Part shown: one piece after another, positions 28,026-53,119 of the stretch
Position numbering within the stretch: the stretch's first letter is position 1
How the letters are laid out: every line of letters starts with the position of its first letter
NCBI GenBank assembly: GCA_964543385.1
Contig: CAZIYE010000002.1
Location: forward strand, 34 to 64,033
Origin: an uncultured Candidatus Saccharibacteria bacterium
Lineage (GTDB): Bacteria; Patescibacteriota; UBA1384; XYA2-FULL-43-10; 1-14-0-10-43-13
Reading direction: 5' to 3'
Length of the DNA stretch: 64,000 nt
Made by a program: the position numbers and the translations under genes
The notes under the pieces: generated by a model
Told to the model about the DNA's origin: nothing
What the model saw: only the letters and a program-made list of their open reading frames with translations
Database searches by the model: none

Positions 28026-29612
28026 ATGGATACAAAAAAAATACCCTTCGTGACACCAGAAGGATTAGATTTCATTTCCAATTTTTCTTCGAGCTTTGCC
28101 GAAGCTAATAATTTAAAATCTGATAATGACAAAACAATCAGCTCGGCTTTTATCTATGAAAAGCTCAGGGTTGCCGTCGAATATCAGGAAGAACATCTGA
28201 TTTTAAAGAATGCGATGAGCAGGATACTCAGGAGAAAATGTACACTTTCTCCTAATATTAATGCTGACCAATTATTTTCCGATCTTATTAGCGAACTGGC
28301 TTGGGCAAACTATATAAATCCTGAAGTGCTGAAAGAAAAAGATTCTGAGAGTATAATCTCTATTATTGATAAATATCTAACCATACTCAAATATGCCAAA
28401 ACCGGTCGCTTTGCGCGTCACGAGTTGAATCATGCTGTCATGGACTGGCTTGCATGCGAAATTGATGAGTTTCTAAGACCAGACAAAAGCGAGCAAATTA
28501 TTGTTGACTATGCCTACAACACTCTTATTAAGAGTCTGGATTTGTCAGAGGTTAGAATTGACGAGAAAGAAAATGAAATTCAGATGAAGGGTGCAATCTA
28601 TGGATTCATCCTGAAGCCGGATTATGCACAGGTGCAATATTGGTTTCTGAAAAATATCTACCCCGATTGGAATAGCTGGGGGATAGAAGAGATGAAGAAG
28701 ATGGCTAGAAGCTTCGATCCATACTATAACAAGCTTGACCATGCACTAAATCATCCGTACCGTAAAAATTATATCCAATTTGTAAAACGCCTCATCCCTC
28801 CATTTATACTCTTATACTCTGTCATGATAAAGAAAAAACTCAGTGCTTCGGAGGTAGGGGAGAAGCCGGCGTTATTGCATAGCCTTATTATGGAAGAATA
28901 TAACCTTAAAGTTGCCGAAGCAAGAAATAAAGTATGGAGAGGTACCTTTAGGGCTTTAATATTTATATTAATAACAAAAATTTCTCTGGCCTTTATTATT
29001 GAAATACCTTTTGACAAATATGTCTCTGGTTCGATTGATATGGTTTCTTTGATAATAAATATCTCCTTGCCTCCGTTGCTGATGTTATTTGCTGGTACAT
29101 TTGTCAAATCTCCTTCTCGTCGAAATTACAAAACAATCTCGGATAGTGTCATCAGTCTTTTGACTCAAAATCAGTTGGATAATAAAAAATACACTCTTGT
29201 TAAAAGCCGATCCACTACATTCATGTTCTTTAATTTAGCTTATTCCTTCATTTCTTTGGGTATATTGTCTGCAGTAATTTGGCTATTGCTCTATCTCAAA
29301 TTTAATATTGTTAGCATTACACTTTTCTTTTTCTTTGTCTCTGTTGTCTCTTTCTTCTCATTTAGAATTAGAAATATCGCCCTGGAGCTAGCGATGAAGA
29401 GGGGGCGGGATGATGCTCTTACTTCGATACTAGAACTTGTCTTCATGCCTTTTATTCGTATTGGAAAATTCTTCTCTGATCGGTTTGCTTCTTTTAACCC
29501 AATGATTTTGGCTTTGGATTTTCTTATTGAGGCTCCGCTTAAAACAGTCATAAAAATTATGAACTCTTGGCTGCGCTTTATAAACGCAAAAAAAGAGGAA
29601 TTAGAATTATAA
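28026..29612 (+). CDS. large hypothetical membrane protein (528 aa; soluble N-terminal half, 4-6 C-terminal TM helices)
   Basis: Long ORF with good coding character; no family recognised. Confidence 0.6.
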   Translation: MDTKKIPFVTPEGLDFISNFSSSFAEANNLKSDNDKTISSAFIYEKLRVAVEYQEEHLILKNAMSRILRRKCTLSPNINADQLFSDLISELAWANYINPEVLKEKDSESIISIIDKYLTILKYAKTGRFARHELNHAVMDWLACEIDEFLRPDKSEQIIVDYAYNTLIKSLDLSEVRIDEKENEIQMKGAIYGFILKPDYAQVQYWFLKNIYPDWNSWGIEEMKKMARSFDPYYNKLDHALNHPYRKNYIQFVKRLIPPFILLYSVMIKKKLSASEVGEKPALLHSLIMEEYNLKVAEARNKVWRGTFRALIFILITKISLAFIIEIPFDKYVSGSIDMVSLIINISLPPLLMLFAGTFVKSPSRRNYKTISDSVISLLTQNQLDNKKYTLVKSRSTTFMFFNLAYSFISLGILSAVIWLLLYLKFNIVSITLFFFFVSVVSFFSFRIRNIALELAMKRGRDDALTSILELVFMPFIRIGKFFSDRFASFNPMILALDFLIEAPLKTVIKIMNSWLRFINAKKEELEL

Positions 29613-33742: not shown

Positions 33743-34492
33743 ATGGAAGAAAAAGATTTACCAATCGAAAACAGGCTTAAGGACTTGCGAAAAGAAAAGC
33801 ACCTTAGTCAAGAGGAATTAGCCGATGCAATCGGTATTTCTCGTCAGTCAATAATCTCACTTGAACAAGGCAGATCAATGCCTTCTGTTCCGTTGGCGAT
33901 TTCCCTATGTCGGTATTTTGATGCCGCATTTGAAGAACTTTTCGACTTCGAGCGCGAAGTTGATAGAGAAATCAACAATGCAATTCACAATGGTAGTATT
34001 AATATAAAAGTAATTAATGATCCAGAAGTCGGATCGAGAAAGGACAATGCTATGGTAGAATTAGAGCCATGGAGACCTTTTAGAGAAACAGTATCCTTGA
34101 GAGACGCAATGGATCGGCTTTTAGAGGATAGTTTTATTACTCCTGCCAAAATGGGGGGTATGCCTCGAATTGATGTCAAAGATAAGAAAGACTCAATTGT
34201 AGTTAAAGCCGAGTTGCCAGGAATCAAGGAAGAGGACATCAATGTCGAAATCCTCGATAATGTCATGACAATCTCAGGTGAGAAAAAAGAGGAAAAAGAA
34301 GAGAAAGAAGAGGACAAAGGCTATTATTACAAAGAAAGCCATACTGGAAAATTCTCTCGAAGTTTCACCCTGCCATCTGAAGTAATGACCGAAAGGGCCG
34401 TTGCTGATATGAAAAATGGTATTCTCACAATCACTGTTCCAAAAATAGAGCCAAAGAAAGCTCAAAAGATAAGCATCGCCCCAAAGAGATAA
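33743..34492 (+). CDS. XRE-family HTH domain fused to a complete Hsp20/alpha-crystallin small heat-shock protein
   Basis: Residues ~8-65 LRKEKHLSQEELADAIGISRQSIISLEQGRSMPSVPLAISLCRYFD (HTH_3). Then WRPFRE ... PRIDVKDKKDSIVVKAELPGIKEEDINVEILDNVMTISGEKKEE ... GKFSRSFTLP ... GILTITVPK (alpha-crystallin domain) in one uninterrupted frame. Confidence 0.75.
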   Translation: MEEKDLPIENRLKDLRKEKHLSQEELADAIGISRQSIISLEQGRSMPSVPLAISLCRYFDAAFEELFDFEREVDREINNAIHNGSINIKVINDPEVGSRKDNAMVELEPWRPFRETVSLRDAMDRLLEDSFITPAKMGGMPRIDVKDKKDSIVVKAELPGIKEEDINVEILDNVMTISGEKKEEKEEKEEDKGYYYKESHTGKFSRSFTLPSEVMTERAVADMKNGILTITVPKIEPKKAQKISIAPKR

Positions 34493-34563: not shown

Positions 34564-35190
34564 TTATGAAAGAAAATCTTTGCCACTCCAATCATCCATA
34601 AATTCTCTTAGATATTTTGCGATAATCTCATGTCTCCTATCTGCAATTATTCTAGCAGTTTTAGTATTCATCATATCTCTTAAGAGCAAAAGTTTTTCAT
34701 GAAAGTGGTTTATACTTGATCCATTTTCTTCCTGAGATTCTTCAGGGTCGAAAATTGGTCTATTTATCTGTGCGCCGTAAGCAAATGTTCTGGCAATACC
34801 AATAGCACCTAGTGCATCGAGTCGATCTGCATCTTGGACGATTTGTGCCTCTAGTGTCTCTGGTTTTATAGCATGCCTTTTATCCTTGAAGCTCACTGTT
34901 AAAATTACATCAATAATTCTATCAATCTTTTCTTGGCCAATCCCTAGAGTGTCCAACCATTTCCGCGTCTTGGATCTCTCTTTCTCATCTTCTACACTTG
35001 AGAACTTGTGATCATCAATATCATGAAGCAGAGCAGCCATCTCTACAATAAAAGCATCGGCTTTTTCCTTTTCGCAAATATATTGTGCAGCTTTCCAAAC
35101 CCTCTGAGTATGCCACCAATCATGACCAGAAATGTCATCCTTGAAAAAATCTTTTACAAAATCAATTGTTTTCTCTATTTCTTTATTCAT
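34564..35190 (-). CDS. HD-domain metal-dependent phosphohydrolase
   Basis: HTQRV ... LLHDIDD HD motif; 208 aa. Confidence 0.8.
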   Translation of the reverse strand: MNKEIEKTIDFVKDFFKDDISGHDWWHTQRVWKAAQYICEKEKADAFIVEMAALLHDIDDHKFSSVEDEKERSKTRKWLDTLGIGQEKIDRIIDVILTVSFKDKRHAIKPETLEAQIVQDADRLDALGAIGIARTFAYGAQINRPIFDPEESQEENGSSINHFHEKLLLLRDMMNTKTARIIADRRHEIIAKYLREFMDDWSGKDFLS

Positions 35191-35538: not shown

Positions 35539-35979
35539 ATGAAGATCAAAGCAAAAAAATTAAATAAAGATGCCATTGTTCCTGTCCATTTATTACATGG
35601 TGACGCAGGGTTGGACTTACATTCCGTAATAGATGTAACTTTAAACTCAGGAGAGAGGCTTGCAGTGCCTACAGGGCTAGCATTTGAGCTGCCGGAGGGC
35701 TATGTATCATTGATCTGGGATAAGAGCGGATTAGCTCTGCGAAATGGTATAAAAACGATGGGCGGGGTGATAGAATATACTTATCGGGGTGAATATAAAA
35801 TAATATTGCTAAACACGACCAATACGCCGTTTCATATTAAAAAGGGTGATAAAATCGCCCAGATGCTGGTGCAGCCAATAATGTCAGTTGATGTTGAAGA
35901 AGTCGAAGAATTAAGCGAGACAGAGCGCGGACTACATGGATTTGGCTCTGCTGATGAGAAGCTAAAGAATGGAAAATAA
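35539..35979 (+). CDS. dut: dUTP diphosphatase (canonical trimeric dUTPase)
   Basis: GLDL, PTGLAFELPEGY, motif III GGVIEYTYRGEYKIILLNT, C-terminal GFGS motif V. Confidence 0.85.
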   Translation: MKIKAKKLNKDAIVPVHLLHGDAGLDLHSVIDVTLNSGERLAVPTGLAFELPEGYVSLIWDKSGLALRNGIKTMGGVIEYTYRGEYKIILLNTTNTPFHIKKGDKIAQMLVQPIMSVDVEEVEELSETERGLHGFGSADEKLKNGK

Positions 35980-36652
35980 AACCGGAAAATTCATTGTCAT
36001 AGATGGTTCTGACGGGTCAGGTAAAAAGACCCAGTCTGATTTATTGATTGAAAGCTTGAAAAAAGCAGGGCATGAGACCGCTTATTATGATTTTCCTGAT
36101 TATGATTCATTCTTTGGTAAGATGGTAGGCCGATACCTCAATGGAGAATTCGGCGAAGCAGATCAGGTCAGCCCCTATCTTGGCTCACTTTTATATGCAG
36201 GGGATCGCTGGCAAGCAAGTAAACAAATAGAAAAAGATCTTTCAGAAGGCAAAATTGTCATTTCAAACCGATACACGCAGTCAAATATGGGCCATCAGGC
36301 TGCAAAAATAGACAATATTGATGAAAAAGAAAAGTATTTGAAATGGCTTGAAGAGCTAGAGTTTAATATTTATAAAATACCAAAACCAGACTTAGTTTTA
36401 TTTTTACATGTCCCAGTAGAGATAAGTCAGAATCTGTTTGTCGGAAAGGGAAAGCGCAAATATACAAAGGCAGTCAAAGATATCCACGAAGGGAATGTCG
36501 ATTTTATGAAGAGGTCGGTCAATGAATATCTCCGTTTAACAGAAAAATATCCAGAGTGGCGAAGAATTGATTGTACAGAGGCAGAAACCCTACTGTCAAA
36601 GGAAGAGATTGCTGATAGAATTTATTCGATGATAACGAAAGAAGTTTTATGA
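35969..36652 (+). CDS. tmk: thymidylate (dTMP) kinase
   Basis: FIVIDGSDGSGKKTQ P-loop, DRW/lid region; 227 aa. Confidence 0.85.
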   Translation: MENKTGKFIVIDGSDGSGKKTQSDLLIESLKKAGHETAYYDFPDYDSFFGKMVGRYLNGEFGEADQVSPYLGSLLYAGDRWQASKQIEKDLSEGKIVISNRYTQSNMGHQAAKIDNIDEKEKYLKWLEELEFNIYKIPKPDLVLFLHVPVEISQNLFVGKGKRKYTKAVKDIHEGNVDFMKRSVNEYLRLTEKYPEWRRIDCTEAETLLSKEEIADRIYSMITKEVL

Positions 36653-36797
36653 TCAGAGATAGGTAAATTTAGATGTTATTCCGGCCTTAATCATTCCTTT
36701 CTCATCAAAGCGGATGTTGAGCGAGGTGGAATCGGAATGTACAAAATAGCAATTAGATCCCAAATAAAATTTGGGATGAAAAAATAAAGGAGCCATT

Positions 36798-38039
36798 ATG
36801 AATTTGAAAGATCAAGACAAAGAAATATTTGAAGTAATCAATTGTGAAAAAGAGCGCCAAGTCGAAGGTTTAGAGATGATTGCTTCTGAAAATTATGTCT
36901 CAGAAGCTGTCCTCGAAGCAACTGGTTCAATCCTCACTAACAAGTATGCTGAGGGCTATCCATACTCTAGATATTATGGTGGCTGTGAGTGCGTTGACAA
37001 AGGAGAGTCATTAGCAATTGAGCGATTAAAGAAATTATTTGGCTGCAAATTTGCCAATGTTCAGCCACACTGTGGATCAAGTGCAAATATGGCAGCTTAT
37101 GCTGCTATCCTTGCGCCAGGTGATAAATTGCTCGGACAAAGTTTAGATGCTGGAGGACATTTGACTCATGGAGCCAAAGTTTCTTTTTCTGGGAAATGGT
37201 TTGAGTCATACAGCTATGGACTTGATTCAGAAACTGGACAGTTAAATTATGAAGAGATCAGAAAAATTGCACTTGAAGTAAGGCCAAAAGTTATTATGTG
37301 TGGGTACTCAGCATATCCAAGAAAAATAGATTTCAAGAAATTTAGAGAGATTGCTGACGAAGTAGACGCATATTTGATTGCAGATATAGCCCACATAGCC
37401 GGATTAGTTGCTACTGGCTATCATGATTCTCCTATTGGTATCGCTGATATAGTTACATCAACAACTCATAAAACTCTAAGAGGTCCACGTTCCGGCATCA
37501 TTATGACAAATAATGAAGAATTGGCAAAGAAGATTGACAAAGCGGTTTTCCCGATGCTTCAGGGTGGTCCACTCGAGCATGTTATTGCCGCTAAGGCAGT
37601 TGCATTTGGCGAAGCGCTAAAACCTGAATTTAAGATATATATAAGCAATGTTTTAGATAATATGCAGACTTTTGCCAAGACTTTAATGTCTTTTGATTTT
37701 GACTTGGTCACTGGCGGGACAGAGAATCATCTAATATTAGTCGATCTTAGAAGCAAGAGCATAACCGGTAAGGAATTCGAGTATGCTCTACACGAAGCAG
37801 GGATTACAGTAAATAAAAATGCTATTCCCAATGACCCAAATCCGCCAAAAGTTACTTCCGGCATCAGAGTTGGGACAGCCGCATTAACAACCCGCGGAAT
37901 GGGTGTTAAAGAAATGCAGCGGATTGCTGAAATGTTTAATATCGTTGCTGAAAATATCAGCGATGAGCAAAAACTTGCCGAAATCAAACAAGAGATTAAA
38001 GAAATGACCGAAAATTTCCCAGTACCGGGCATTAAATAA
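36798..38039 (+). CDS. glyA: serine hydroxymethyltransferase
   Basis: EMIASENYVS, PLP-lysine region TSTTHKTLRGPRSG; 413 aa. Confidence 0.9.
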   Translation: MNLKDQDKEIFEVINCEKERQVEGLEMIASENYVSEAVLEATGSILTNKYAEGYPYSRYYGGCECVDKGESLAIERLKKLFGCKFANVQPHCGSSANMAAYAAILAPGDKLLGQSLDAGGHLTHGAKVSFSGKWFESYSYGLDSETGQLNYEEIRKIALEVRPKVIMCGYSAYPRKIDFKKFREIADEVDAYLIADIAHIAGLVATGYHDSPIGIADIVTSTTHKTLRGPRSGIIMTNNEELAKKIDKAVFPMLQGGPLEHVIAAKAVAFGEALKPEFKIYISNVLDNMQTFAKTLMSFDFDLVTGGTENHLILVDLRSKSITGKEFEYALHEAGITVNKNAIPNDPNPPKVTSGIRVGTAALTTRGMGVKEMQRIAEMFNIVAENISDEQKLAEIKQEIKEMTENFPVPGIK

Positions 38040-38048
38040 GGATTAGCG

Positions 38049-38357
38049 ATGGATTTTTCAGAATTACAAGAAAAAATTATTGCCAATGCAGAGCGATATT
38101 CAAAAAAACATGATATTTTAATTAATGATGATTATGCAATTCATAAATTATATGAAGAAGTTGGCGAGTTTTCTCAAGCCTGGCTTATTCACAATCGCCA
38201 ATGCAGAGAATCGAAATATGTTGAAAAAGAGATGTCCAAGAAGATGATCTCGCACGAATTGGCTGATATAATCGGAATTGCGGTAGTGATAGCAAATTTG
38301 CAGAAAATAAACTTAGAAAAAGCAATTGACCAAAAATGGATTAATAGAGAAAAATAA
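38049..38357 (+). CDS. MazG-like single-domain nucleoside-triphosphate pyrophosphohydrolase
   Basis: LYEEVGEFSQAW ... ELADIIGIAVVIANL EExxE/ELAD motifs of the all-alpha NTP-PPase fold; 102 aa. Confidence 0.6.
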   Translation: MDFSELQEKIIANAERYSKKHDILINDDYAIHKLYEEVGEFSQAWLIHNRQCRESKYVEKEMSKKMISHELADIIGIAVVIANLQKINLEKAIDQKWINREK

Positions 38358-38358
38358 T

Positions 38359-38913
38359 ATGATATTAGGAGTAACTGGAACAATTGGCGCTGGCAAAGAT
38401 TTGATTGCAAGATATCTGGAAAGTAAAGATTTTCAGCATATTTCTACTGCCGATATCCTTAGAGAAGAAGTCTCTCAAAAAGGCTTATCCTTAGAACGTG
38501 AATCATTACGCACTTTTTCAAACGATTTAAAGAAAGAAAAAGGTGGCGATTATCTAGCAAGGGAGGCTGTTGCTAGAATGAAAAGTGATAATATTATAAT
38601 ATCCGCAATAAGAGCAGTAGAAGAAGTCGATTACCTAAAAAAACTAGATAATTTTTATCTTATTTTTATTGATGCTCCTGTTGAATTACGATATGAAAGA
38701 ATCAGAAAAAGATCACGGATAGGCGAGAAGGAAATAGCCTTTGAAGAGTTTAAAAGAAAAGAAGACTTAGAAATGTTTGGCCAAAGCTCACAAAGACTAG
38801 ATTATTGCAGGGAGAAGGCCGATTTCATAATTAGTAATACTAGCTCCATAGATCAATTAAATATAGAAATTGACAATCTGCTAATCAAGATTAGGGAAAG
38901 TGGAAATAAATGA
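38359..38913 (+). CDS. P-loop (deoxy)nucleoside-monophosphate kinase-like protein with GxxxxGKD Walker A (T4 gp1 dNMP-kinase-like / CoaE-like fold)
   Basis: MILGVTGTIGAGKDLIARYL. The GKD (not GKS/T) P-loop is shared with T4 gene-1 dNMP kinase (GVKRSGKDTTADFI). 184 aa. Start moved to ATG 38359 after the mazG-like stop. Confidence 0.5.
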   Translation: MILGVTGTIGAGKDLIARYLESKDFQHISTADILREEVSQKGLSLERESLRTFSNDLKKEKGGDYLAREAVARMKSDNIIISAIRAVEEVDYLKKLDNFYLIFIDAPVELRYERIRKRSRIGEKEIAFEEFKRKEDLEMFGQSSQRLDYCREKADFIISNTSSIDQLNIEIDNLLIKIRESGNK

Positions 38914-39740
38914 CACAGTTTGATCATGTATACCAAGATGCAATAGCCAGAGTTCTGAATGAAGGAGTGGAAGATTTTAATGTTCGTACTGGCATGAAAG
39001 TAAAGGCAGTGCCGGGACTTACTTTTCAGTGTGATTTTGGTTTTCCGATATTAACATTACGCAAAATCCCCATAAAACTATTTATAGCTGAGATGGTTTG
39101 GTTTCTTTCTGGTAGCAAGGATCCAGATGATTTCTTAAGTAAATATACGAAAATATGGGATGATTTCCGAGAAGAAGATGGTACTATTGCTGCGGCTTAT
39201 GGTCATCGCTGGAGACACCATTTCGGGCGTGATCAGATAAAAGACTTAATTTCCCTTCTCCAGAATGAGCCATCTTCGCGCCACGGTGTGGTCGTAACAT
39301 GGGATCCGGCAGACGACGGTCTTGGCAGCGGCACGAAAAAGAAAAACGTACCTTGTCCATACACATTTACCGTAAATATTATCGGTGATAGACTTCATTT
39401 GCATTCAATAGTTCGCTCAAATGATATGATGCTTGGCTGCCCTCACGATACAGCCGGCTTCTCATTGCTCCAATATTTATTAGCAGCAAAACTTGGCGTA
39501 AGACCAGGCGTTTATACACATTCAGTAAGCAATGCTCATATATATGAAAATCATTATGACCAGGCATGGGAGATCGTGAATAGAGAAAATTCTCACCCCC
39601 CAATCGTTTTTGAGCCCAGGCCAGATTATCTAGATAGAGCAATGGCAGGGGACGAAAGCGTAATAAATGAAATTTACGAAACATTAACAGAACAATACAA
39701 ACCTAGATCAGCAGTTAAAAAAATGAAGATAGCATTATGA
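38910..39740 (+). CDS. ThyA-family pyrimidine-nucleotide C5 (hydroxy)methyltransferase; cytosine-type active site (Asp at the uracil-specifying Asn position); predicted dCMP methylase or hydroxymethylase rather than canonical thymidylate synthase
   Basis: Aligns by eye to E. coli ThyA: R21 (VRTGMKV), E58 (IAEMVWFL), Y94 (AAAYGHRWR), C146 (NVPCPYTF; His147 replaced by Pro), R166-S167-(N)-D169 (VRSND), H207/Y209 (NAHIY). The GLPFNIASY block reads GCPHDTAGF, so E. coli N177 is Asp, as in T4 gp42 (RSND...FGFRND). Confidence 0.7.
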   Translation: MTQFDHVYQDAIARVLNEGVEDFNVRTGMKVKAVPGLTFQCDFGFPILTLRKIPIKLFIAEMVWFLSGSKDPDDFLSKYTKIWDDFREEDGTIAAAYGHRWRHHFGRDQIKDLISLLQNEPSSRHGVVVTWDPADDGLGSGTKKKNVPCPYTFTVNIIGDRLHLHSIVRSNDMMLGCPHDTAGFSLLQYLLAAKLGVRPGVYTHSVSNAHIYENHYDQAWEIVNRENSHPPIVFEPRPDYLDRAMAGDESVINEIYETLTEQYKPRSAVKKMKIAL

Positions 39741-40264
39741 AAACAATAATAATCATGGCTCAGTCACTTGATGGTGTGATAGCTTATGACGCTGACCACG
39801 CCGCGAACTGGACATCGAAAGAAGATAAGCAGTTTTTTATATCTGAAACCAAGAAAGCCGGAGTAATAATTTTTGGCAGAAATACCTATAAAACTTTTGG
39901 CGACAAACCTTTGCAAGGCAGACTAAACCTTGTGATGACCCTGGATGAAAGTGAAAAGCAATTTGAAAAGCCAGGTCTTGTTGAATATGCGGTTAAAAAA
40001 GAGCCATCGGAAATATTAAAAATGTTAAAAAAGAGAGGCTTTAAAAAAGTTTTTGTCGGCGGAGGAAGTATGATTAATTCACTTTTCCTTGATAAGGGGT
40101 TAATCGATGAACTTTGGATAACCATTGAGCCAAAAATTTTTGGAAAAGGATTAAAAATACTCACTGATCAAAAAAGAGATATTAATCTTGTTTTGAAAAC
40201 AGTTAAAAAAGCAAACCAATCAGTTTTATTAAAGTACGGAGTGAATTATGGGAATTCTAACTAG
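39737..40264 (+). CDS. folA: dihydrofolate reductase
   Basis: IIIMAQSLDGVIA ... IFGRNTYKTFGDKPLQGRLNLVMT ... VFVGGGSMINSLFL parallel E. coli FolA blocks ([37 protein letters not shown]). Confidence 0.75.
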   Translation: MKTIIIMAQSLDGVIAYDADHAANWTSKEDKQFFISETKKAGVIIFGRNTYKTFGDKPLQGRLNLVMTLDESEKQFEKPGLVEYAVKKEPSEILKMLKKRGFKKVFVGGGSMINSLFLDKGLIDELWITIEPKIFGKGLKILTDQKRDINLVLKTVKKANQSVLLKYGVNYGNSN

Positions 40265-40964
40265 AAAAGAAATTTTGACTGCTATTGCTGATGGGGAGCT
40301 TAGTTTTGAGCCAGGCTTAGACCAATTTCAGCTACAACCAGCTGCAATCGACGTTCGGGTTGGTATGAACTTTTTCATACCAAAAATTTGGTCATTTGGA
40401 GAAGAGGGAAGAACGGGCTTGAATACTGATCATCTTGATAACGAAAAAAAGAATGAGTTTTTAGATAGTCTACATTTAAAACATGGGCAGACCTTTGAAT
40501 TGCTCCCAGGGGAATTTATCTTAATTTCGACTCTAGAAAAGATTTCTATGAAGTCAGGCAGACTTGTCTCTATCCTTTATCCTAGGAGTTCCACGACCAG
40601 AAGAGGTATATCTATTGAATCTGGCGTTATAGATCCTCATTACGAAGGCTCTCTTATGATCCCTGTTTTTAATATGACTAGAACGCAAAAAATCAAGATA
40701 TATCCCGGTGAAAGAATTGCCCAGCTTGTTTTTTCTACTACCGAGAGTGTTCTTTCTAAGGAAGAGTCCTTGAATCATGGACTTGCAAAACCTAAATATC
40801 AGGGAGTCCAAGGCTATCAGTTGGATTATAAGTTCGATCCGCATGATGAAATCAATTTAGTCAAAAATGGCCAATTGGATAAATTAAAAAAGAATCACCT
40901 AATTTCATTAGACGAAAGGGTTGAAAGTGGCGACGAAAAAAATCAACTACCCTTATCTGCCTAA
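40248..40964 (+). CDS. dCTP-deaminase/dUTPase-superfamily protein (Dcd-like jelly-roll); catalytic Glu of true dCTP deaminases apparently absent, so possibly a dCTP/dUTP pyrophosphatase
   Basis: AIDVRVG ... LPGEFILISTLE ... YPRSSTTRRG ... IDPHYEGSLMIPVFNMT ... IYPGERIAQLVF. Dcd S111/R115 conserved, but the VLEF Glu (E. coli E138) aligns to Pro/Val. Confidence 0.6.
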   Translation: MGILTRKEILTAIADGELSFEPGLDQFQLQPAAIDVRVGMNFFIPKIWSFGEEGRTGLNTDHLDNEKKNEFLDSLHLKHGQTFELLPGEFILISTLEKISMKSGRLVSILYPRSSTTRRGISIESGVIDPHYEGSLMIPVFNMTRTQKIKIYPGERIAQLVFSTTESVLSKEESLNHGLAKPKYQGVQGYQLDYKFDPHDEINLVKNGQLDKLKKNHLISLDERVESGDEKNQLPLSA

Positions 40965-41808
40965 AGGTAGAGAAATCAAGTTTGTCGGTTCTGAAAATGA
41001 ATATATATTAGCGGCTAAAGAGGCTGCTATGAAGGCTGGCTGCAGAAAACAGCCAACAGGAGCAGTCTTGGTCAAAGACGGCAAAATAATAATGACGGCT
41101 ACCAATGCAAGTACTACGGTCAGCGTCTGCCCCAGAGTATTAAAAGGAAGCAAGACTGGAACCGACTATCATTTTTGCAAGGAAGTTTGTAATCAAGACG
41201 GGCACTCTGAATATAGCGCAGTACAAAAATGTCTAGAGAAGGGGATAGACATAAAAGACGCTGATATTTATCTCTGGGGACATTGGTGGTGCTGCAAACC
41301 ATGTTGGGACAAGATGATCGAAGGAGAAATCAAAAATGTTTATCTGGAGAAAAATGCAGATGAAAAATTCATGTTTTCCGCAACTATCGGCAAAATCTAT
41401 ATTTCAGGTGCTCTCACCATACAGCCAAAGGGTAAAAATTTAAGAAAATCATATGAAAATTTAGCAGCAGTTTGCTCAAACTTTTGTAGCAATGTTTATG
41501 TGCCACATCTTAATAGCACGGATCCGATCAAGGATCCCAATGAAGTGCCGTCTATTGTTTGGAAAACTGATCACAGGGAAGTAGCTTCTTCTGATATCGT
41601 AGTCGCATATGTTGGCGCACCATCTCTAGGGACTGGCGCAGAGCTTGAGATCGCCAGAATGGCGGCTTCAGATATAGTAGTTTGGTGGTATAAAGGTGAA
41701 ATGGTTAGTAGAATGTGTCTTGGAAATCCAAATGTTAAATATAAGTTGGAAGTTATCAATGACCAAGATTTAGCCCATCAGCTTAAGTTAGTCCTAAGGA
41801 ATTATTAG
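40921..41808 (+). CDS. fusion: dCMP/cytidine-deaminase zinc-binding domain + nucleoside 2-deoxyribosyltransferase-like (NDT/Rcl/MilB-family) domain
   Basis: N-terminal HSEYSAVQKC ... WWCCKPCWDKM (H-x-E ... PC-x-x-C deaminase zinc site). C-terminal IYISGAL ... IVVAYVGAPSLGTGAELEIARMAASDIVVWW resembles the NDT-family D-x-G-T-x-x-E motif. TTG start at 40921 overlaps the dcd-like gene; true start uncertain. Confidence 0.65.
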   Translation: MKVATKKINYPYLPKGREIKFVGSENEYILAAKEAAMKAGCRKQPTGAVLVKDGKIIMTATNASTTVSVCPRVLKGSKTGTDYHFCKEVCNQDGHSEYSAVQKCLEKGIDIKDADIYLWGHWWCCKPCWDKMIEGEIKNVYLEKNADEKFMFSATIGKIYISGALTIQPKGKNLRKSYENLAAVCSNFCSNVYVPHLNSTDPIKDPNEVPSIVWKTDHREVASSDIVVAYVGAPSLGTGAELEIARMAASDIVVWWYKGEMVSRMCLGNPNVKYKLEVINDQDLAHQLKLVLRNY

Positions 41809-42046: not shown

Positions 42047-43774
42047 ATGCAAGAGAAAATCGACATCGAAAAAGTTAGACACTCGCTTAGCCATGTTTTG
42101 GCTGCAGCTGTTTTGGATATGTTTCCAGAGGCAAAGCTCGGTATCGGACCGGCTATTGAGAATGGTTTTTATTATGATTTTGATTTGCCAAGAACTTTAA
42201 TCCCAGAAGACCTGCCAATCCTTGAGGAGAAAATGAAAAAAATGATTGCTGGTGATTTTGCCCTAGAATGCAGGAAGGAGCCGAAAGACAAGGCTGAAAA
42301 TTTTTTCAAAAAAATAGGTCAACAGTATAAATCTGAATTAGCAAGTGAAATTGATGATGAGAGTGTCTCAATATATGACATAAAAGACGAGAAAAGCGGT
42401 CAATATGTATTTGCTGATCTTTGCGCTGGGCCACACATCGAGTCTGCGAAAAATTTAAGAAACATTGGCTGGAAATTAGATAAAATCGCTGGTGCTTATT
42501 GGCGTGGTAATGAAAAGAATAAGATGTTGCAGCGTATTTATGGGTTGGCTTTCGAAACTAGAGACGAACTAAAAGAATATGAGCTGATGATGATCGAAGC
42601 AGCTAAGCACGATCATAAAAAATTAGGCAAAGAGCTGGATTTGTTCTCTTTTCATCCCGAAGCTCCGGGTATGCCCTTCTGGCACGAAAAAGGGATGGCT
42701 ATTTGGACTCAGCTTGAAAAATTTGGCAAATCAATTCGTAAGAAATATGATTATATTGAGATCAAGACTCCACTTCTAGCCAAAAATAGCTTATGGATAA
42801 CATCTGGCCACTGGGACCATTATCGAGATGGCATGTTCACTTTTAATATCGGCGAAGATATTTATGGACTGAAACCCATGGATTGTCCATTTAATGTAAA
42901 GATTTATCAGACGAAACCAAGATCATATAAGGATCTGCCAATTCGTTACACAGAAATAGGTCATGTTCACCGCAAGGAGCAATCGGGTGAATTAAATGGT
43001 CTTTTGAGAGTACAAGAAATTACCCAAGATGATTCTCATATATTTATGAGAGAAGACCAAATCGGCGAAGAAATTGGTAAATTATTAAAAATGGTCAAAG
43101 AATTTTATAAAAAACTCACATTAGAACCAGAGTTTTTCCTTTCGACTAGACCGGAAAAATATATAGGTGAGATTAAGACTTGGGACAAGGCTGAAGATGA
43201 CTTAAGAAAGGTACTTGAGTCTGAAAAAATCAGCTATGAGCTGAAGGAAAAGGATGGCGCATTTTATGGCCCAAAAATCGATGTTAATATCAAAGATGTG
43301 TTTGGTAGATCTTGGCAGTTAGCCACTATCCAGTTAGATTTTCAATTACCCGGACGCTTTGATTGTGAATATATAGACGAAAATGGTGAAAAAAAGACTC
43401 CAGTCTTAATACATGCTGCAGTATTTGGTGCGTTTGAACGCATGATTGGCATCTTAATTGAGCATTTTGGTGGTGCTTTTCCAACATGGTTGGCGCCAAT
43501 TCAAGCTCAAATACTGCCGATTGCTGATAGACATCTCGAATATGCAAAGAAAATCAGAGAAGCATTGCAAGACCAAGGAATCAGAGTCTCTATTGATGAT
43601 AGAACAGAATCCATCGGCAAGAAAATCCGTGAAGCTGAAATGCAAAAAATCCCTTACATGCTAATAGTCGGTGACAAAGAAATCGAAGCCAAGAAAATAG
43701 CAGTTCGAAAATATGGAGAAGGGGATAGGGGGCAGATAGATGCTGAGGAATTAATCAAAGAGATAAATGGCTAA
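42047..43774 (+). CDS. thrS: threonine--tRNA ligase (short form lacking the N-terminal TGS domain)
   Basis: Editing-domain HxxxH (HSLSHVLAAA), class II motifs (FRHE-like region, GELNGLLRVQEIT, anticodon-binding domain); ATG 42047 preferred over the ORF-track start 42023. Confidence 0.9.
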   Translation: MQEKIDIEKVRHSLSHVLAAAVLDMFPEAKLGIGPAIENGFYYDFDLPRTLIPEDLPILEEKMKKMIAGDFALECRKEPKDKAENFFKKIGQQYKSELASEIDDESVSIYDIKDEKSGQYVFADLCAGPHIESAKNLRNIGWKLDKIAGAYWRGNEKNKMLQRIYGLAFETRDELKEYELMMIEAAKHDHKKLGKELDLFSFHPEAPGMPFWHEKGMAIWTQLEKFGKSIRKKYDYIEIKTPLLAKNSLWITSGHWDHYRDGMFTFNIGEDIYGLKPMDCPFNVKIYQTKPRSYKDLPIRYTEIGHVHRKEQSGELNGLLRVQEITQDDSHIFMREDQIGEEIGKLLKMVKEFYKKLTLEPEFFLSTRPEKYIGEIKTWDKAEDDLRKVLESEKISYELKEKDGAFYGPKIDVNIKDVFGRSWQLATIQLDFQLPGRFDCEYIDENGEKKTPVLIHAAVFGAFERMIGILIEHFGGAFPTWLAPIQAQILPIADRHLEYAKKIREALQDQGIRVSIDDRTESIGKKIREAEMQKIPYMLIVGDKEIEAKKIAVRKYGEGDRGQIDAEELIKEING

Positions 43775-44192
43775 TCCAAAACCTGGAAAAGATTATATCG
43801 GTGTTGGTGGAGGGGTATTAATTATCAACGATAAAAAAGAAACTCTTTTGTTGAAACGAGGCAAGAAGGCAAAAAACGATATTGGAATCTGGTGCAAGCC
43901 TGGCGGCGCAGTGGAGTATGGGGAGACCGTTGAGGCAATGATGAAAAGAGAGGTCAAAGAAGAATTAAATATAGATATAGAAATCATTAAATGGCTCAAA
44001 CATACAGATCATTTTGTTGATGGCGATCACTGGGTCGCATTTAATTGCGTTGCCAAAATTATAAATGGTAATCCGGAAAATATGGAACCTCTTAAACATT
44101 CCGAAATAAAGTGGTTTAGTCTTGATAAAATGCCGAAAAATCTAGCTGCACCTACTAAAGATGCAGCAGAAGAATATCTAAAAAGTCTATGA
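43767..44192 (+). CDS. NUDIX hydrolase
   Basis: Nudix box GGAVEYGETVEAMMKREVKEELNI; 141 aa. Confidence 0.8.
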   Translation: MANPKPGKDYIGVGGGVLIINDKKETLLLKRGKKAKNDIGIWCKPGGAVEYGETVEAMMKREVKEELNIDIEIIKWLKHTDHFVDGDHWVAFNCVAKIINGNPENMEPLKHSEIKWFSLDKMPKNLAAPTKDAAEEYLKSL

Positions 44193-51796: not shown

Positions 51797-53119
51797 TTAG
51801 CTAAATGTCAATTCTGTACGATAGCCCCTTTTAAAATCTTCGTAGGTCATTTCATTCTTGCCTTCAGGCTTGACTCGATCTAGCGCATAGGTCAAATCCT
51901 TCTCAAAATGACCGGCAATCAATTGCACTTTTTTGTCTTTTACAACTGCGAATGCCTTTGGCCAGTCGCTAAATGCTCTAATTTTTCTGTCTACTATCTC
52001 TTTGGGTGTATCTGCGTCGACAAATCCATCTTCTTTTTTGAAAAGTCGATTGTATGTTGCCTTGCTATCATCTTGGGGTGTTGGTTCTAGATCCTTGGTC
52101 AGATAATAAGGGATAGAATTAACCAGAAGCGAAGCACCAATTTCTGCTAAGTAAGGTTTTAAAATAGTTGTTGTCTCTGTGCCACGAAGCTGGACACTAG
52201 CCTGTGAAATGATGTCACCAGCATCCATTTTTTCGCCAGTCAATATTAGAGATACTCCGGTAACCTTATCACCGTCTAAAATTGTTTGTTGAATCGGTGA
52301 TGGTCCTCTGTGCTGAGGCAAAAGAGACGGATGGATATTTATTATGCCAAATTCTGGAATATCAATTATATCTTTACTAATGATCTGTCCAAAATCGGCC
52401 ATTATCCCAAGCTTCGGTTTCAGTGCTTTAATTTTTTCAACAATGTCAGGAGATTTAATATTGTCGGTTTTGATTATTGGTAGATTATATCTGTTTGCAA
52501 TCTCCTCAATTGGATTTTTCTTTTTATTATGTTTTCTGGAAACAGCCTGGGAATTGCCGGTTATGACTGCCCTGATCTTATATTGGGGATCAATAGCTAA
52601 AATTTCTAGAGCATCGATGCCGAGAGTTCCAGTACCTATAAATATAACGTCTATCTCTCGGATATGGTCAATTAGTAGAGTTGAATTTAAATGGTCAATT
52701 TCATGTTGAAGTACTCTCGAGAATAGGCCAGTTGCCTCGATAGTCAGATTATTTCCTAATCGATCTTTGCCAGTCACAGTAACGTCGCTAGGTCTCTTAA
52801 CAATTATCTCTAAGCCAGGAAAAGACAGACACCCCTCCACCATATTTCTAGATGATTTCGATCTTTTAGTTATTTTTGGGTTGCAAATAACTGTCAGGGG
52901 AAAGGATTTAAATCTTGAGTCCTCTTCGGCCTTGTATTCGCAAACTATTACTTTTTTTGAACTTTTGACTTGAGGAGCGGCAAGGCCAACGCCATTAGCA
53001 GCTCTCATGGTATCAATCATATCATCTATGAAGGCTTGAAATTCCATACCAAAATCGCTGACCTCTTCGGTCTTGGCTCTAAGAATTGGATTGCTAGTTT
53101 TTATTATTTCTAATTTCAT
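51797..53119 (-). CDS. fused peptide deformylase (N-terminal) and methionyl-tRNA formyltransferase (C-terminal), single 440-aa ORF
   Basis: Def motifs GVGLAAPQ, EGCLSFP, QHEIDHL in residues ~40-140; then Fmt N-domain with HPSLLPQHRGPSPIQ and the Fmt C-terminal beta-barrel region, no stop between. Confidence 0.85.
   Translation of the reverse strand: MKLEIIKTSNPILRAKTEEVSDFGMEFQAFIDDMIDTMRAANGVGLAAPQVKSSKKVIVCEYKAEEDSRFKSFPLTVICNPKITKRSKSSRNMVEGCLSFPGLEIIVKRPSDVTVTGKDRLGNNLTIEATGLFSRVLQHEIDHLNSTLLIDHIREIDVIFIGTGTLGIDALEILAIDPQYKIRAVITGNSQAVSRKHNKKKNPIEEIANRYNLPIIKTDNIKSPDIVEKIKALKPKLGIMADFGQIISKDIIDIPEFGIINIHPSLLPQHRGPSPIQQTILDGDKVTGVSLILTGEKMDAGDIISQASVQLRGTETTTILKPYLAEIGASLLVNSIPYYLTKDLEPTPQDDSKATYNRLFKKEDGFVDADTPKEIVDRKIRAFSDWPKAFAVVKDKKVQLIAGHFEKDLTYALDRVKPEGKNEMTYEDFKRGYRTELTFS

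What the first reader, a model, noticed from the sequence alone, without database searches (positions are those of the whole stretch)
35539..41808. T-even-phage-like deoxycytidylate modification module in a cellular chromosome (dut, tmk, glyA, mazG-like, gp1-like dNMP kinase, Asp-type ThyA homolog, folA, Glu-less Dcd-like, dCMP deaminase::NDT)
Nine co-directional, nearly abutting genes form one deoxynucleotide unit. The parts map onto the phage T4 hydroxymethyl-dC pathway: a dCTP-clearing dUTPase-superfamily enzyme (gp56 analogue: the Dcd-like protein and/or MazG), a ThyA-family enzyme with cytosine specificity (gp42 analogue), a GKD-P-loop dNMP kinase (gp1 analogue), dCMP deaminase (cd), DHFR (frd), and SHMT supplying methylene-THF. 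Phages use such modules to replace C with hm5C or m5C before replication. Here the flanks are ordinary cellular genes (tRNA-Val, thrS, uvrB), not phage genes. Two readings, both non-canonical: (a) the host builds hm5dC/m5dC at nucleotide level for its own DNA (self-protection or marking); (b) it makes dTMP by an unusual route dCMP -> 5-methyl-dCMP -> dTMP using the fused dCMP deaminase. Neither has been described for a cellular organism as far as I know.
Basis: partly seen in the sequence, partly recalled or inferred. Interest (0 to 1): 0.88.

Follow-up and report, generated by a model that had tools for sequence, protein, structure and literature searches.

The report
Cytosine-type thymidylate operon in a Patescibacterium
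A tiny-celled (CPR/Patescibacteria) bacterium, like many of its relatives, carries a thymidylate operon whose "thymidylate synthase" has the active site of the phage enzymes that methylate dCMP, which suggests these cells make thymine nucleotides by methylating cytosine nucleotides first and deaminating them afterwards.

Summary
Nine co-directional genes at 35539-41808 encode Dut, Tmk, SHMT, a small MazG-like protein, a dNMP-kinase-like protein, a ThyA homolog, DHFR, a Dcd-like protein and a dCMP-deaminase fusion. They sit in an ordinary bacterial chromosome.

The oddities are family traits. All 120 best homologs and all 80 genome loci of the ThyA homolog have Asp at E. coli Asn177 and Pro at His147. 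All 120 Dcd-like homologs have Pro at the catalytic Glu.

The closest characterised relatives are the ThyA homologs of Xp12/PaMx74-type phages, which make 5-methyl-dCMP (37-40% identity). T4 dCMP hydroxymethylase is far more distant (24%). Across 80 Patescibacteria genomes the gene sits next to DHFR in 77 and near the deaminase in 72.

The deaminase's C-terminal domain is DNPH1-like: it is a dNMP N-glycosidase fold with the catalytic residues kept.

Best reading, inferred and not assayed: dCTP -> dCMP -> 5-methyl-dCMP -> dTMP, a "deaminate-last" thymidylate route. Rivals are an ordinary dUMP enzyme, and 5mC going into the genome. I found no description of this in a cellular organism.

The parts
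35539..35979 (+). dut: trimeric dUTPase-family protein (146 aa). Atypical motif III, 'VIEYTY', with Glu where relatives have Asp.
   Evidence: TIGR00576 139 bits, PF00692 102 bits. Motif comparison with 20 Patescibacteria Dut proteins and E. coli Dut.
35969..36652 (+). tmk: dTMP kinase (227 aa)
   Evidence: TIGR00041 88.5 bits (cut-off 83.25), PF02223. A tmk homolog lies within 10 kb of the ThyA homolog in 25 (tblastn) to 43-44 (HMM) of 80 loci.
36798..38039 (+). glyA: serine hydroxymethyltransferase (413 aa), the source of 5,10-methylene-THF
   Evidence: NF000586 615 bits, PF00464 526 bits. Near the ThyA homolog in 17/80 loci.
38049..38357 (+). Small MazG-like all-alpha NTP pyrophosphohydrolase candidate (102 aa) with an EExxE...ExxD motif
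   Evidence: Weak matches only: PF12643/PF03819/PF01503 E 1e-4 to 1e-3, below Pfam cut-offs; phrog_715/4856 about 1e-4; PDB 1vmg, 2q73 and 2gta, MazG-like. Found in only 2/80 related loci.
38359..38913 (+). P-loop (GxxGxGKD) nucleoside-monophosphate-kinase-like protein (184 aa from the ATG; 195 aa from TTG 38326). Substrate unknown.
   Evidence: phrog_139 'deoxynucleoside monophosphate kinase' 1.3e-14. NF006226 5.8e-24 and archaeal (d)CMP kinase TIGR02173 1.3e-9, both below cut-off. Best PDB match is SSO1041 UPF0200/AdkA-like, 3.5e-10. The stop overlaps the ThyA start by 4 bp.
38910..39740 (+). ThyA homolog of the cytosine (Asp177) type (276 aa): predicted dCMP C5-methyltransferase (5-methyl-dCMP synthase)
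   Evidence: PF00303 182 bits. Residues at E. coli positions 146/147/165/166/169/176/177 are C-P-V-R-D-H-D, against C-H-Q-R-D-F-N. Invariant D177 and P147 in 120/120 homologs and 80/80 genome loci. Best phage matches are PaMx74/Xp12-like phages. Falls in an all-Asp NJ clade.
39737..40264 (+). folA: DHFR / RibD_C-type dihydrofolate reductase (175 aa)
   Evidence: PF00186 52.9 bits (cut-off 25), PF01872 74 bits. A homolog is present in 77/80 loci and directly adjacent in 69. Overlaps the thyA stop by 4 bp.
40248..40964 (+). Dcd-like protein lacking the deaminase Glu (238 aa). Candidate dCTP pyrophosphatase or regulator.
   Evidence: PF22769 98 bits, TIGR02274 101.5 bits. Pro replaces the catalytic Glu in the alignment with 2qxx. 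The same holds in 120/120 database homologs and 35/36 locus homologs, with the motif Asp, Ser and Arg kept. Lies next to an Asp-type ThyA also when found starting from the Dcd side.
40927..41376 (+). Deaminase domain (aa 1-150) of the fusion protein: divergent dCMP-deaminase family with HSE...CCKPC intact
   Evidence: PF00383 42 bits. PDB 2hvv S. mutans dCMP deaminase, 25 bits. Foldseek hits to S. mutans and T4 dCMP deaminases. Invariant C68, C84, H93, E95, C122, C123 and C126. A deaminase-domain homolog lies near the ThyA homolog in 72/80 loci.
41389..41808 (+). DNPH1/Rcl/MilB-like nucleotide N-glycosidase domain (aa ~155-293) of the same protein
   Evidence: AF2 model pLDDT 91. Foldseek best hits are human DNPH1 (TM 0.80-0.82 normalised to target, rmsd 2.6-2.9 A), rat Rcl and MilB. 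hhalign to human DNPH1 gives 96.4% probability, E 1e-9, with the Y24, D80, E104 and S128 equivalents conserved. Fused in about 14 of 72 loci and a separate gene in 3.

Best explanation
This is the housekeeping thymidylate operon of a Patescibacteria (CPR) bacterium, but with the order of the chemical steps changed. The proposed pathway has these steps:

1. dCMP supply (inferred). dCMP comes from salvage, or from dCTP through the Dcd-like protein. That protein has lost the deaminating Glu but keeps the nucleotide-binding and hydrolysis-type residues, so it would act as a dCTP pyrophosphatase.
2. Methylation (inferred from sequence, clade and linkage). The Asp177/Pro147 ThyA homolog methylates dCMP, not dUMP, at C5 using 5,10-methylene-THF. 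The products are 5-methyl-dCMP and dihydrofolate.
3. Folate recycling (family assignments shown). The adjacent DHFR and SHMT recycle the folate.
4. Deamination (inferred). The linked dCMP-deaminase-family enzyme deaminates the 5-methylcytosine nucleotide to thymidylate. This could happen at the monophosphate level, or after phosphorylation by the adjacent dNMP-kinase-like protein, as with the phage enzyme mSCD-B5.
5. Phosphorylation. Tmk converts dTMP to dTDP.
6. Pool cleaning (speculative). Dut, the MazG-like protein and the fused DNPH1-like N-glycosidase clean the pool of dUTP, dUMP or mis-made 5-substituted nucleotides that this pathway cannot use.

The genomic DNA would remain canonical.
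For: (1) Active site. Asp replaces Asn177, Pro replaces His147 and Val/Ile replaces Gln165. These are the three residues that read uracil O4/N3. The change is invariant in 120/120 homologs and 80/80 genome loci. Asn177->Asp is the established dUMP->dCMP specificity switch, and positions 177 and 147 are the top discriminators of cytosine-modifying ThyA homologs (PMC8670742).

(2) Relatedness. The best phage matches are PaMx74-, Xp12-like Xanthomonas, Stenotrophomonas, Achromobacter and Janthinobacterium phages (166-178 bits, 37-40% identity). E. coli ThyA scores 114 bits and T4 gp42 45 bits. The roughly 75 nearest cluster representatives are all Asp-type. In the NJ tree the query lies in a 109-tip all-Asp clade together with the phage enzymes. 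Shared motifs are NVPCP, WDPA.DGLG and WR.HFGRDQI. The Xp12 enzyme and five related Asp177 homologs were shown to make 5-methyl-dC nucleotides, and the adjacent deaminases were proposed to make dT nucleotides from them (bioRxiv 10.1101/2024.12.05.627091).

(3) Same module in the phages. The phage gene order is pyrophosphohydrolase - thyA(D) - dCMP deaminase - DHFR.

(4) Methyl and not hydroxymethyl. A DHFR homolog is present in 77/80 loci and directly adjacent in 69. A TS-like C-terminal tail (...VKKMKIAL against ...IKAPVAI) is kept, whereas T4 gp42 lacks it.

(5) Deaminase linkage. It is found in 72/80 loci. DCTD-type deaminases accept 5-methyl-dCMP (PMC12088426).

(6) Co-ordinated loss of the deaminase Glu in the Dcd-like partner. 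It is absent in 120/120 homologs. The linkage is reciprocal.

(7) dTMP is the product. tmk is in the operon, and no second ThyA-like ORF or ThyX was found in the window or in 1.3 Mb of related loci.
Against: - No enzyme was assayed, so every substrate assignment is inferred from sequence.
- A protonated Asp can still bind uracil, and Asn->Asp TS mutants keep some dUMP activity (my own knowledge), so a dUMP or dual-specificity enzyme is not excluded.
- The deaminase is very divergent: 25 bits to a solved dCMP deaminase and no BLAST similarity to the PaMx74 deaminase. Its substrate is unknown.
- A Dut gene in the operon implies that dUMP is still made, which is wasteful if nothing can methylate it.
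- The dNMP-kinase-like gene overlapping thyA would fit phosphorylation of 5-methyl-dCMP on its way into DNA.
- Whole genomes could not be scanned, so a ThyX or an Asn-type ThyA elsewhere is not ruled out.
- The NJ tree has no support values, and its taxon sample was chosen by similarity to the query.
Confidence: 0.5

Rival explanations
1. Ordinary dTMP operon. Despite Asp177, the ThyA homolog is a dUMP-specific (or dual-specificity) thymidylate synthase. It is fed by the dCMP deaminase (dCMP -> dUMP) and by Dut. The Dcd-like protein is a degenerate or regulatory paralog.
For: Gene content is exactly that of a classical thymidylate unit: Dut, Tmk, SHMT, ThyA, DHFR, Dcd and dCMP deaminase. The protein passes NCBIfam's TS equivalog cut-off (TIGR03284, 121.6 against 108.35). 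It keeps C146, R166, S167, D169, H207, Y209, E58, W80, Y94 and a TS-like tail. Deaminase-ThyA-DHFR linkage is equally expected for this route.
Against: Asn177, His147 and Gln165 are all replaced, invariantly, in the same sense as in enzymes proven to act on dCMP (PMC8670742; bioRxiv 10.1101/2024.12.05.627091). The protein clusters with phage dCMP methyltransferases and not with Asn-type enzymes. The partner Dcd-like protein has lost the Glu that the classical dCTP -> dUTP step needs, in 120/120 homologs.
Confidence: 0.2
2. Genome modification. 5-methyl-dCMP (or hm5dCMP) is phosphorylated by the gp1-like kinase and incorporated, so the bacterium's own DNA carries 5mC in place of some or all C, as in phage Xp12. 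The deaminase diverts part of the pool to dT. The Dcd-like and MazG-like proteins deplete dCTP.
For: The module matches that of phages reported to replace C fully by 5mC. A phrog_139 dNMP-kinase-like gene overlaps the thyA start. Two candidate dCTP-clearing enzymes are present.
Against: The kinase accompanies the ThyA homolog in only 17-31 of 80 loci and the MazG-like gene in 2 of 80, so they are not core parts. No glycosyl- or other transferase and no modification-linked restriction gene was seen among the window proteins I scanned. tmk sits in the operon and DHFR and deaminase are tightly linked, which an ordinary need for dTMP explains. No report of bulk 5mC in Patescibacteria DNA was found, although absence from that library is weak evidence.
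Confidence: 0.15
3. Hydroxymethylase or salvage-sanitation system. The ThyA homolog makes 5-hydroxymethyl-dCMP (T4-like). Alternatively, the deaminase plus the DNPH1-like domain mainly detoxify salvaged 5-substituted cytosine nucleotides (5mdCMP, 5hmdCMP), as human DCTD and DNPH1 do.
For: Asp177 is shared with T4 gp42. The fused C-terminal domain is DNPH1/MilB-like with catalytic residues kept. Both of those enzymes act on 5-hydroxymethyl pyrimidine nucleotides.
Against: T4 gp42 is a distant relative (45 bits). A hydroxymethylase releases THF and has no need for the near-universal adjacent DHFR. The TS-like C-terminal tail is present. The DNPH1-like domain occurs in only about 17 of 72 loci, so it is an accessory.
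Confidence: 0.1

Closest known systems
Xp12/PaMx74-type phage 5-methyl-dC module (ThyA-homolog dCMP methyltransferase + deaminase + DHFR + MazG-type pyrophosphohydrolase)
   Same: The ThyA homolog has Asp177 and Pro147 and the shared motifs NVPCP, WDPA.DGLG and WR.HFGRDQI. These are the best phage matches (37-40% identity). A dCMP-deaminase-family gene and DHFR lie next to it, and the window also has a MazG-like gene upstream. Thymine nucleotides are proposed to derive from 5-methyl-dC nucleotides.
   Different: Here the module is encoded in a cellular chromosome, among housekeeping genes, and is conserved across many Patescibacteria lineages. It is embedded with tmk, dut and glyA. The partner is a Pro-type Dcd-like protein and not a large MazG-type enzyme. 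The deaminase shows no detectable BLAST similarity to the phage one and is sometimes fused to a DNPH1-like domain. There is no evidence that the host DNA is 5mC-substituted.
Canonical thymidylate synthase cycle (ThyA EC 2.1.1.45 + DHFR + SHMT)
   Same: Same fold. Catalytic Cys146, Arg166, Asp169, His207, Tyr209, Glu58, Trp80 and a C-terminal tail are present. The gene is coupled to DHFR and SHMT, and the probable end product is dTMP.
   Different: Asn177->Asp, His147->Pro, Gln165->Val/Ile and Arg127->His, invariantly. It clusters apart from Asn-type enzymes. The predicted substrate is dCMP, so a deamination step must follow.
Phage T4 hydroxymethyl-dC pathway (gp42 dCMP hydroxymethylase, gp56 dCTPase, gp1 dNMP kinase, cd, frd)
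   Same: Asp at the specificity position. The logic is the same: clear dCTP to dCMP, modify at C5, then phosphorylate. A phrog_139 dNMP-kinase-like gene is present.
   Different: gp42 is only 24% identical (45 bits), lacks the C-terminal tail and lies outside the clade. The T4 reaction releases THF and needs no DHFR. No glucosyltransferase is present. The candidate dCTPase here is Dcd-like and not gp56-like.
Human DCTD + DNPH1 nucleotide-sanitation pair; MilA/MilB of mildiomycin biosynthesis
   Same: The last gene fuses a dCMP-deaminase domain to a DNPH1/MilB-like N-glycosidase domain that keeps the Tyr, Asp, Glu and Ser catalytic set. MilB works downstream of a ThyA homolog (MilA).
   Different: The fusion is present in only a minority of related loci. 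The substrates are unknown. MilA and MilB act on ribonucleotides and feed antibiotic synthesis.

Membership tests
Canonical thymidylate synthase ThyA (dUMP -> dTMP) | Thymidylat_synt fold with the catalytic Cys146 and the phosphate/ribose ligands (R21, R126', R166, S167, D169, H207, Y209) | tested here: met
   PF00303 182 bits. C146, R21, R126, R166, S167, D169, H207 and Y209 are conserved; R127 is His.
Canonical thymidylate synthase ThyA (dUMP -> dTMP) | Asn177 (with Gln165 and His147) reading uracil O4/N3-H | tested here: not met
   The residues are Asp, Val and Pro. D177 and P147 are found in 120/120 homologs and 80/80 loci.
Canonical thymidylate synthase ThyA (dUMP -> dTMP) | Groups with Asn-type enzymes in similarity ranking and tree | tested here: not met
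   The first Asn-type representative appears only at about rank 77. In the NJ tree the query is in an all-Asp clade and E. coli ThyA is in the separate Asn clade.
ThyA-homolog dCMP C5-methyltransferase (Xp12 type, 5-methyl-dCMP synthase) | Asp at position 177 and a non-His residue at 147 | tested here: met
   C-P-V-R-D-H-D here, against C-P-L-R-D-Y-D in PaMx74 and Donnerlittchen.
ThyA-homolog dCMP C5-methyltransferase (Xp12 type, 5-methyl-dCMP synthase) | Closest relatedness to the phage enzymes of 5mC-genome phages | tested here: met
   The top tblastn phage hits are PaMx74/Xp12-like phages, 166-178 bits against 114 for E. coli ThyA. Same NJ clade, without support values.
ThyA-homolog dCMP C5-methyltransferase (Xp12 type, 5-methyl-dCMP synthase) | Reductive methyl transfer producing DHF, shown by genomic coupling to DHFR and a retained C-terminal closing segment | tested here: met
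   DHFR homolog in 77/80 loci, adjacent in 69. The phage modules also carry DHFR. The tail ...YKPRSAVKKMKIAL is present. This evidence is indirect only.
ThyA-homolog dCMP C5-methyltransferase (Xp12 type, 5-methyl-dCMP synthase) | Measured conversion of dCMP to 5-methyl-dCMP | not testable with these tools
   Needs an enzyme assay or LC-MS.
T4-type dCMP hydroxymethylase (gp42) | Asp179 and Cys148 | tested here: met
   Both align (gp42 sequence verified against 1B49).
T4-type dCMP hydroxymethylase (gp42) | Truncated C-terminus / open active site, and close sequence relatedness to gp42 | tested here: not met
   A TS-like tail is present. Similarity to gp42 is only 24% identity, 45 bits. gp42 lies outside the Asp clade.
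dCTP deaminase (Dcd) / bifunctional DCD-DUT | Catalytic Glu (E138 in E. coli, E129 in M. tuberculosis) | tested here: not met
   Pro at this position in the window protein, in 120/120 homologs and in 35/36 locus homologs. The protein nevertheless passes the TIGR02274 cut-off.
dCTP deaminase (Dcd) / bifunctional DCD-DUT | Dcd fold with Ser111/Arg115-type motif and the conserved Asp of 'ID' | tested here: met
   The RSSxxRRG motif is conserved (R 120/120, second Ser 120/120, first Ser 115/120) and the Asp is kept in 116/120. PF22769 98 bits.
DNPH1/Rcl 2'-deoxynucleoside 5'-phosphate N-hydrolase (NDT superfamily) | Fold, plus the catalytic Tyr24, Asp80, Glu104 and trans Ser128 | tested here: met
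   Foldseek top hits are DNPH1, TM 0.80-0.82. hhalign 96.4% with all four residues aligned and conserved. The Pfam match is below cut-off (20.8 against 28.8). Activity was not tested.
T4 gp1-type dNMP kinase | P-loop NMP-kinase fold assigned to the phage dNMP kinase family | tested here: inconclusive
   phrog_139 1.3e-14 and a GxxGxGKD P-loop. However, the best solved relative is the archaeal UPF0200/AdkA-like protein, and the NCBIfam hits are below cut-off. The substrate is unknown.

The most novel reading that the evidence does not exclude
Whole lineages of Patescibacteria build 5-methyl-dC nucleotides as obligatory intermediates, and part of that pool is phosphorylated and incorporated. Their chromosomal DNA would then carry 5-methylcytosine made at the nucleotide level, partly or fully replacing C. 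That state is so far known only from phages such as Xp12.
Probability: 0.12. Interest if true: 0.95.

Novelty: new variant of a known kind. Interest (0 to 1): 0.78.

Why it matters
Textbooks give cellular life two ways to make thymidylate, ThyA or ThyX, and both act on dUMP. If these bacteria methylate dCMP and deaminate afterwards, that is a third route, used as a housekeeping pathway by a large part of the Candidate Phyla Radiation. It would bypass dUMP as the precursor.

Several things would follow:
- Thousands of 'thymidylate synthase' and 'dCTP deaminase' annotations would need changing. Both proteins pass NCBIfam equivalog cut-offs while lacking defining catalytic residues.
- It would suggest where the phage 5-methylcytosine pathway came from, or went to.
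- It would bear on metabolic reconstructions of these unculturable symbionts.
- It would provide new dCMP methyltransferases, 5mC-nucleotide deaminases and DNPH1-like enzymes for methylation-sequencing chemistry.

It also raises a question that can be tested directly: does Patescibacteria DNA contain nucleotide-level 5mC?

Tried and rejected
- **Regulatory RNA or internal terminators.** The Rfam gathering scan of the whole window found only tRNAs and tmRNA, with no THF or ZTP riboswitch in the 145-bp tmk-glyA gap. The promoter/terminator scan found promoter-like sites at the chance level and no + strand terminator.
- **Phage or mobile origin of the locus.** Rejected. GC is even, the flanks are housekeeping genes, and the viral-contig scan found no close relative. 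That scan used exact peptide patterns, so it reaches only close relatives.
- **T4 gp42-like hydroxymethylase.** Considered and ranked low.
- **Similarity of the window deaminase, MazG-like protein and kinase to the PaMx74/Donnerlittchen module proteins.** BLASTP found none. Only ThyA and, weakly, DHFR match.
- **His in 'IDPHY' of the Dcd-like protein as a new catalytic base.** Rejected, because the position is variable among homologs.
- **Second TS.** This covers only about 20 kb per genome, so it is weak.
- **Literature.** Searches for this pathway in Patescibacteria/CPR found nothing.
- **Iterated HMM for the DNPH1-like domain.** It was contaminated by fusion proteins, so its count is not used.
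- **Dictyostelium Dcd2 lead.** PMC10733785 places this protein inside a CPR Dcd clade. I read it, but it did not bear on the Pro-type family.

Full report
**1. What is there**

The interval 35539-41808 holds nine + strand ORFs. Their junctions are -11, +145, +9, +1, -4, -4, -17 and -38 bp. There is no terminator-like site on the + strand and no Rfam element between them.

Profile searches identify them in order:
- a trimeric dUTPase;
- dTMP kinase;
- serine hydroxymethyltransferase;
- a 102-aa protein with weak MazG/PRA-PH matches and an EExxE...ExxD motif;
- a P-loop kinase whose best named match is the phage dNMP-kinase family phrog_139 (1.3e-14);
- a Thymidylat_synt protein;
- a DHFR;
- a DCD-family protein;
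- a protein with a dCMP-deaminase domain and a weak nucleoside 2-deoxyribosyltransferase match.

The surrounding window is a bacterial chromosome. It carries nine tRNAs, a tmRNA, ThrS, UvrB, ribosomal protein L25, PriA, Der, Lon, RNase Y, RsmH and a Def-Fmt fusion. GC is even at about 0.35-0.40. Homologs carry the names Falkowbacteria, Uhrbacteria, Kuenenbacteria, Moranbacteria, Nomurabacteria, Paceibacteria and Gracilibacteria, so the source is a Patescibacteria (CPR) organism.

**2. The ThyA homolog is a cytosine-type enzyme, as a family trait**

I aligned the protein to E. coli ThyA and T4 gp42. Both reference sequences are identical to PDB chains 1AOB and 1B49.

The protein keeps Cys146, Arg21, Arg126, Arg166, Ser167, Asp169, His207, Tyr209, Glu58, Trp80 and Tyr94. 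It has Asp for Asn177, Pro for His147, Val for Gln165 and His for Arg127. All 120 best database homologs have Asp177 and Pro147, as do all 80 loci recovered from species-representative genomes.

Asn177->Asp is the classical switch from dUMP to dCMP. Positions 177 and 147 are the two best discriminators of ThyA homologs on cytosine-modified DNA (PMC8670742).

An exhaustive HMMER search of 1.84 billion cluster representatives shows that the roughly 75 nearest families are all Asp-type. The canonical C-H-Q-R-D-F-N signature first appears around rank 77. In a neighbour-joining tree the query lies in a 109-tip all-Asp clade, and the 19 Asn-type sequences group with E. coli ThyA. That tree has no support values, and its sample was chosen by similarity to the query.

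**3. Closest characterised relatives**

tblastn against 50,697 phage records puts the following first, at 36-40% identity and 155-178 bits: PaMx74, PaMx28, AAT-1, Xanthomonas phages Mallos, Elanor and DoCa10, Stenotrophomonas A1432, Achromobacter 83-24 and Janthinobacterium Donnerlittchen. The first conventional phage TS scores about 115 bits.

Pairwise BLASTP gives 178 bits (Donnerlittchen), 166 (PaMx74), 114 (E. coli ThyA) and 45 (T4 gp42). The phage proteins share NVPCP, WDPA.DGLG and WR.HFGRDQI with the window protein.

In those phages the gene order is pyrophosphohydrolase - thyA - dCMP deaminase - DHFR. A 2024 preprint (10.1101/2024.12.05.627091) makes the following points:
- Xp12 and PaMx74 replace C with 5mC.
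- The Xp12 enzyme and five of seven Asp177 homologs produce 5-methyl-dC nucleotides in vivo.
- The adjacent deaminases are proposed to make dT nucleotides from them. One of them, mSCD-B5, acts on 5mdCTP.

The right analogy is therefore the Xp12 5-methyl-C module and not the T4 hydroxymethyl-C pathway.

**4. Linkage across genomes**

Eighty genome loci were recovered from Falkow-, Kuenen-, Uhr-, Magasanik-, Moran-, Nomura-, Paceibacteria and related MAGs. Several record titles, such as 'Gammaproteobacteria', are plainly mis-assigned.

Linkage in those loci:
- The deaminase domain accompanies the ThyA homolog in 72. It lies either downstream or divergently about 0.5 kb upstream.
- A DHFR homolog is present in 77 and directly adjacent in 69.
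- The Dcd-like gene is present in 38.
- tmk is present in 25-44.
- dut is present in about 19.
- glyA is present in 17.
- The kinase is present in 17-31.
- The MazG-like gene is present in 2.

The core is therefore ThyA(Asp) + DHFR + deaminase, and the window shows an unusually complete version. The near-universal DHFR and the TS-like C-terminal segment argue for a reductive, DHF-producing methyl transfer and against hydroxymethylation. The tail reads ...VKKMKIAL, against ...IKAPVAI in E. coli, and is absent from T4 gp42.

**5. The Dcd-like protein**

Aligned to the M. tuberculosis DCD-DUT (2qxx), the catalytic Glu (LEL) is Pro (IPV). The Ser/Arg motif and the conserved Asp are kept. Pro occupies this position in 120/120 database homologs and 35/36 locus homologs. 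Asp is kept in 116/120, and a dUTPase-like Tyr is present in 115/120.

The His in 'IDPHY' is not conserved. Two Pro-type homologs chosen without regard to ThyA, one on a 1.2-Mb JGI contig and one in a Gracilibacteria MAG, also sit next to Asp-type ThyA and DHFR.

So the loss of deaminase chemistry in Dcd and the gain of cytosine specificity in ThyA travel together. This is what one would expect if deamination moved from the first step of the E. coli route (dCTP -> dUTP) to the last. That the Dcd-like protein hydrolyses dCTP to dCMP is my inference.

**6. The last gene**

The deaminase domain is divergent, with only 25 bits to S. mutans dCMP deaminase. It keeps HSE...CCKPC plus further invariant Cys residues.

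An AlphaFold model built with 47 homologs has pLDDT 91. Foldseek matches the C-terminal domain to human DNPH1 (TM 0.80-0.82 normalised to target, rmsd 2.6-2.9 A), rat Rcl and MilB. It matches the N-terminal domain to S. mutans and T4 dCMP deaminases.

A profile-sequence comparison with human DNPH1 (sequence verified) gives 96.4% probability. It aligns conserved residues with Tyr24, Asp80, Glu104 and Ser128. The domain is fused in about 14 of 72 loci and is a separate gene in three, so it is an accessory part.

A plausible but speculative role is hydrolysis of dUMP or 5-hm-dUMP, which this pathway cannot use. This would parallel the human DCTD/DNPH1 pair.

**7. Interpretation**

Best supported, confidence about 0.5, is a 'deaminate-last' thymidylate pathway: dCTP (or salvaged dCMP) -> dCMP -> 5-methyl-dCMP -> dTMP -> dTDP. 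Folate is recycled by DHFR and SHMT. DCTD-type deaminases do accept 5-methyl-dCMP (PMC12088426).

The rivals are:
- an ordinary dUMP or dual-specificity TS (0.2);
- incorporation of 5mC into the organism's own DNA (0.15);
- a hydroxymethylase or sanitation role (0.1).

Nothing here is biochemical. I could not scan whole genomes for ThyX. None was seen in the window plus 1.3 Mb of loci, and no locus has a second ThyA-like ORF.

**8. Novelty**

The enzyme type and the ThyA(Asp)-deaminase-DHFR module are known from phages. Finding the module as a conserved chromosomal housekeeping operon of a bacterial radiation is a new variant of that kind. So is its pairing with a Pro-type Dcd-like family and, in some lineages, a deaminase::DNPH1-like fusion. 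Full-text searches found no description of this for Patescibacteria/CPR. Both key proteins pass NCBIfam equivalog cut-offs and are annotated 'thymidylate synthase' and 'dCTP deaminase' in public records. The current annotation therefore probably hides the difference.

Noticed in passing
window 35539-35979 (+): The window's dUTPase has Glu in motif III ('GVIEYTYRGE') where E. coli Dut and all 20 Patescibacteria Dut proteins from related loci have Asp. Its motif V ends 'GFGSAD' where the relatives have 'GSTG'. It may be an altered-specificity or weakened enzyme.
   Followed up: partly
window 38910-39740 and 40248-40964: Both proteins pass NCBIfam equivalog cut-offs (TIGR03284 thymidylate synthase, 121.6 against 108.35; TIGR02274 dCTP deaminase, 101.5 against 92.8) although each lacks a defining catalytic or specificity residue. 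Public names for their homologs are 'thymidylate synthase' and 'dCTP deaminase', which is probably a systematic mis-annotation.
   Followed up: partly
window 110-864 (+), 870-2507 (-), 4233-5180 (-): A cluster of four tRNA genes (Pro, Gly, His, Arg) is followed at once by a large serine recombinase (Resolvase + Recombinase domains) and, 1.7 kb further on, by an rve-type integrase/transposase. This may be an integrated mobile element at the start of the window.
   Followed up: no
window 51797-53119 (-): A single 440-aa ORF combines peptide deformylase (Pep_deformylase) with methionyl-tRNA formyltransferase domains (Formyl_trans_N/C), a Def-Fmt fusion.
   Followed up: no
window 33743-34492 (+): A 249-aa protein combines an N-terminal XRE-type HTH domain with a C-terminal HSP20 (alpha-crystallin) domain, according to the Pfam hits precomputed for the identical gene on contig L001.
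   Followed up: no
window 34564-35190 (-) and 43767-44192 (+): An HD-domain phosphohydrolase lies just upstream of the cluster, beyond tRNA-Val. A NUDIX hydrolase overlaps the end of thrS just downstream. Either could be a further nucleotide-pool enzyme. An HD_3-type gene also lies near the cluster in L087.
   Followed up: no
loci L008, L009, L011, L012 and others: Many 'TPA_asm' MAG records that carry this Patescibacteria-type cluster are titled 'uncultured Gammaproteobacteria bacterium' or 'Candidatus Saccharibacteria'. One 3.6-kb contig sits in a Ktedonobacterales bin (L050). These labels look like taxonomic mis-assignments or mis-binning.
   Followed up: no
alignment A1 (deaminase family; window 40927-41376): This deaminase family has an invariant 'GHWWCCxxCW' motif and extra invariant Cys68/Cys84, which suggests a second metal site. 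The DCTD allosteric motif G(Y/W)N(A/G) is reduced to 'xxNA(G/S)', so dCTP/dTTP regulation may differ from classical dCMP deaminases.
   Followed up: no
window 5287-8925 (+): A 1212-aa ORF has only a short polysaccharide-deacetylase match. ORFs at 13122-14291 and 28026-29612 have no Pfam match at all.
   Followed up: no
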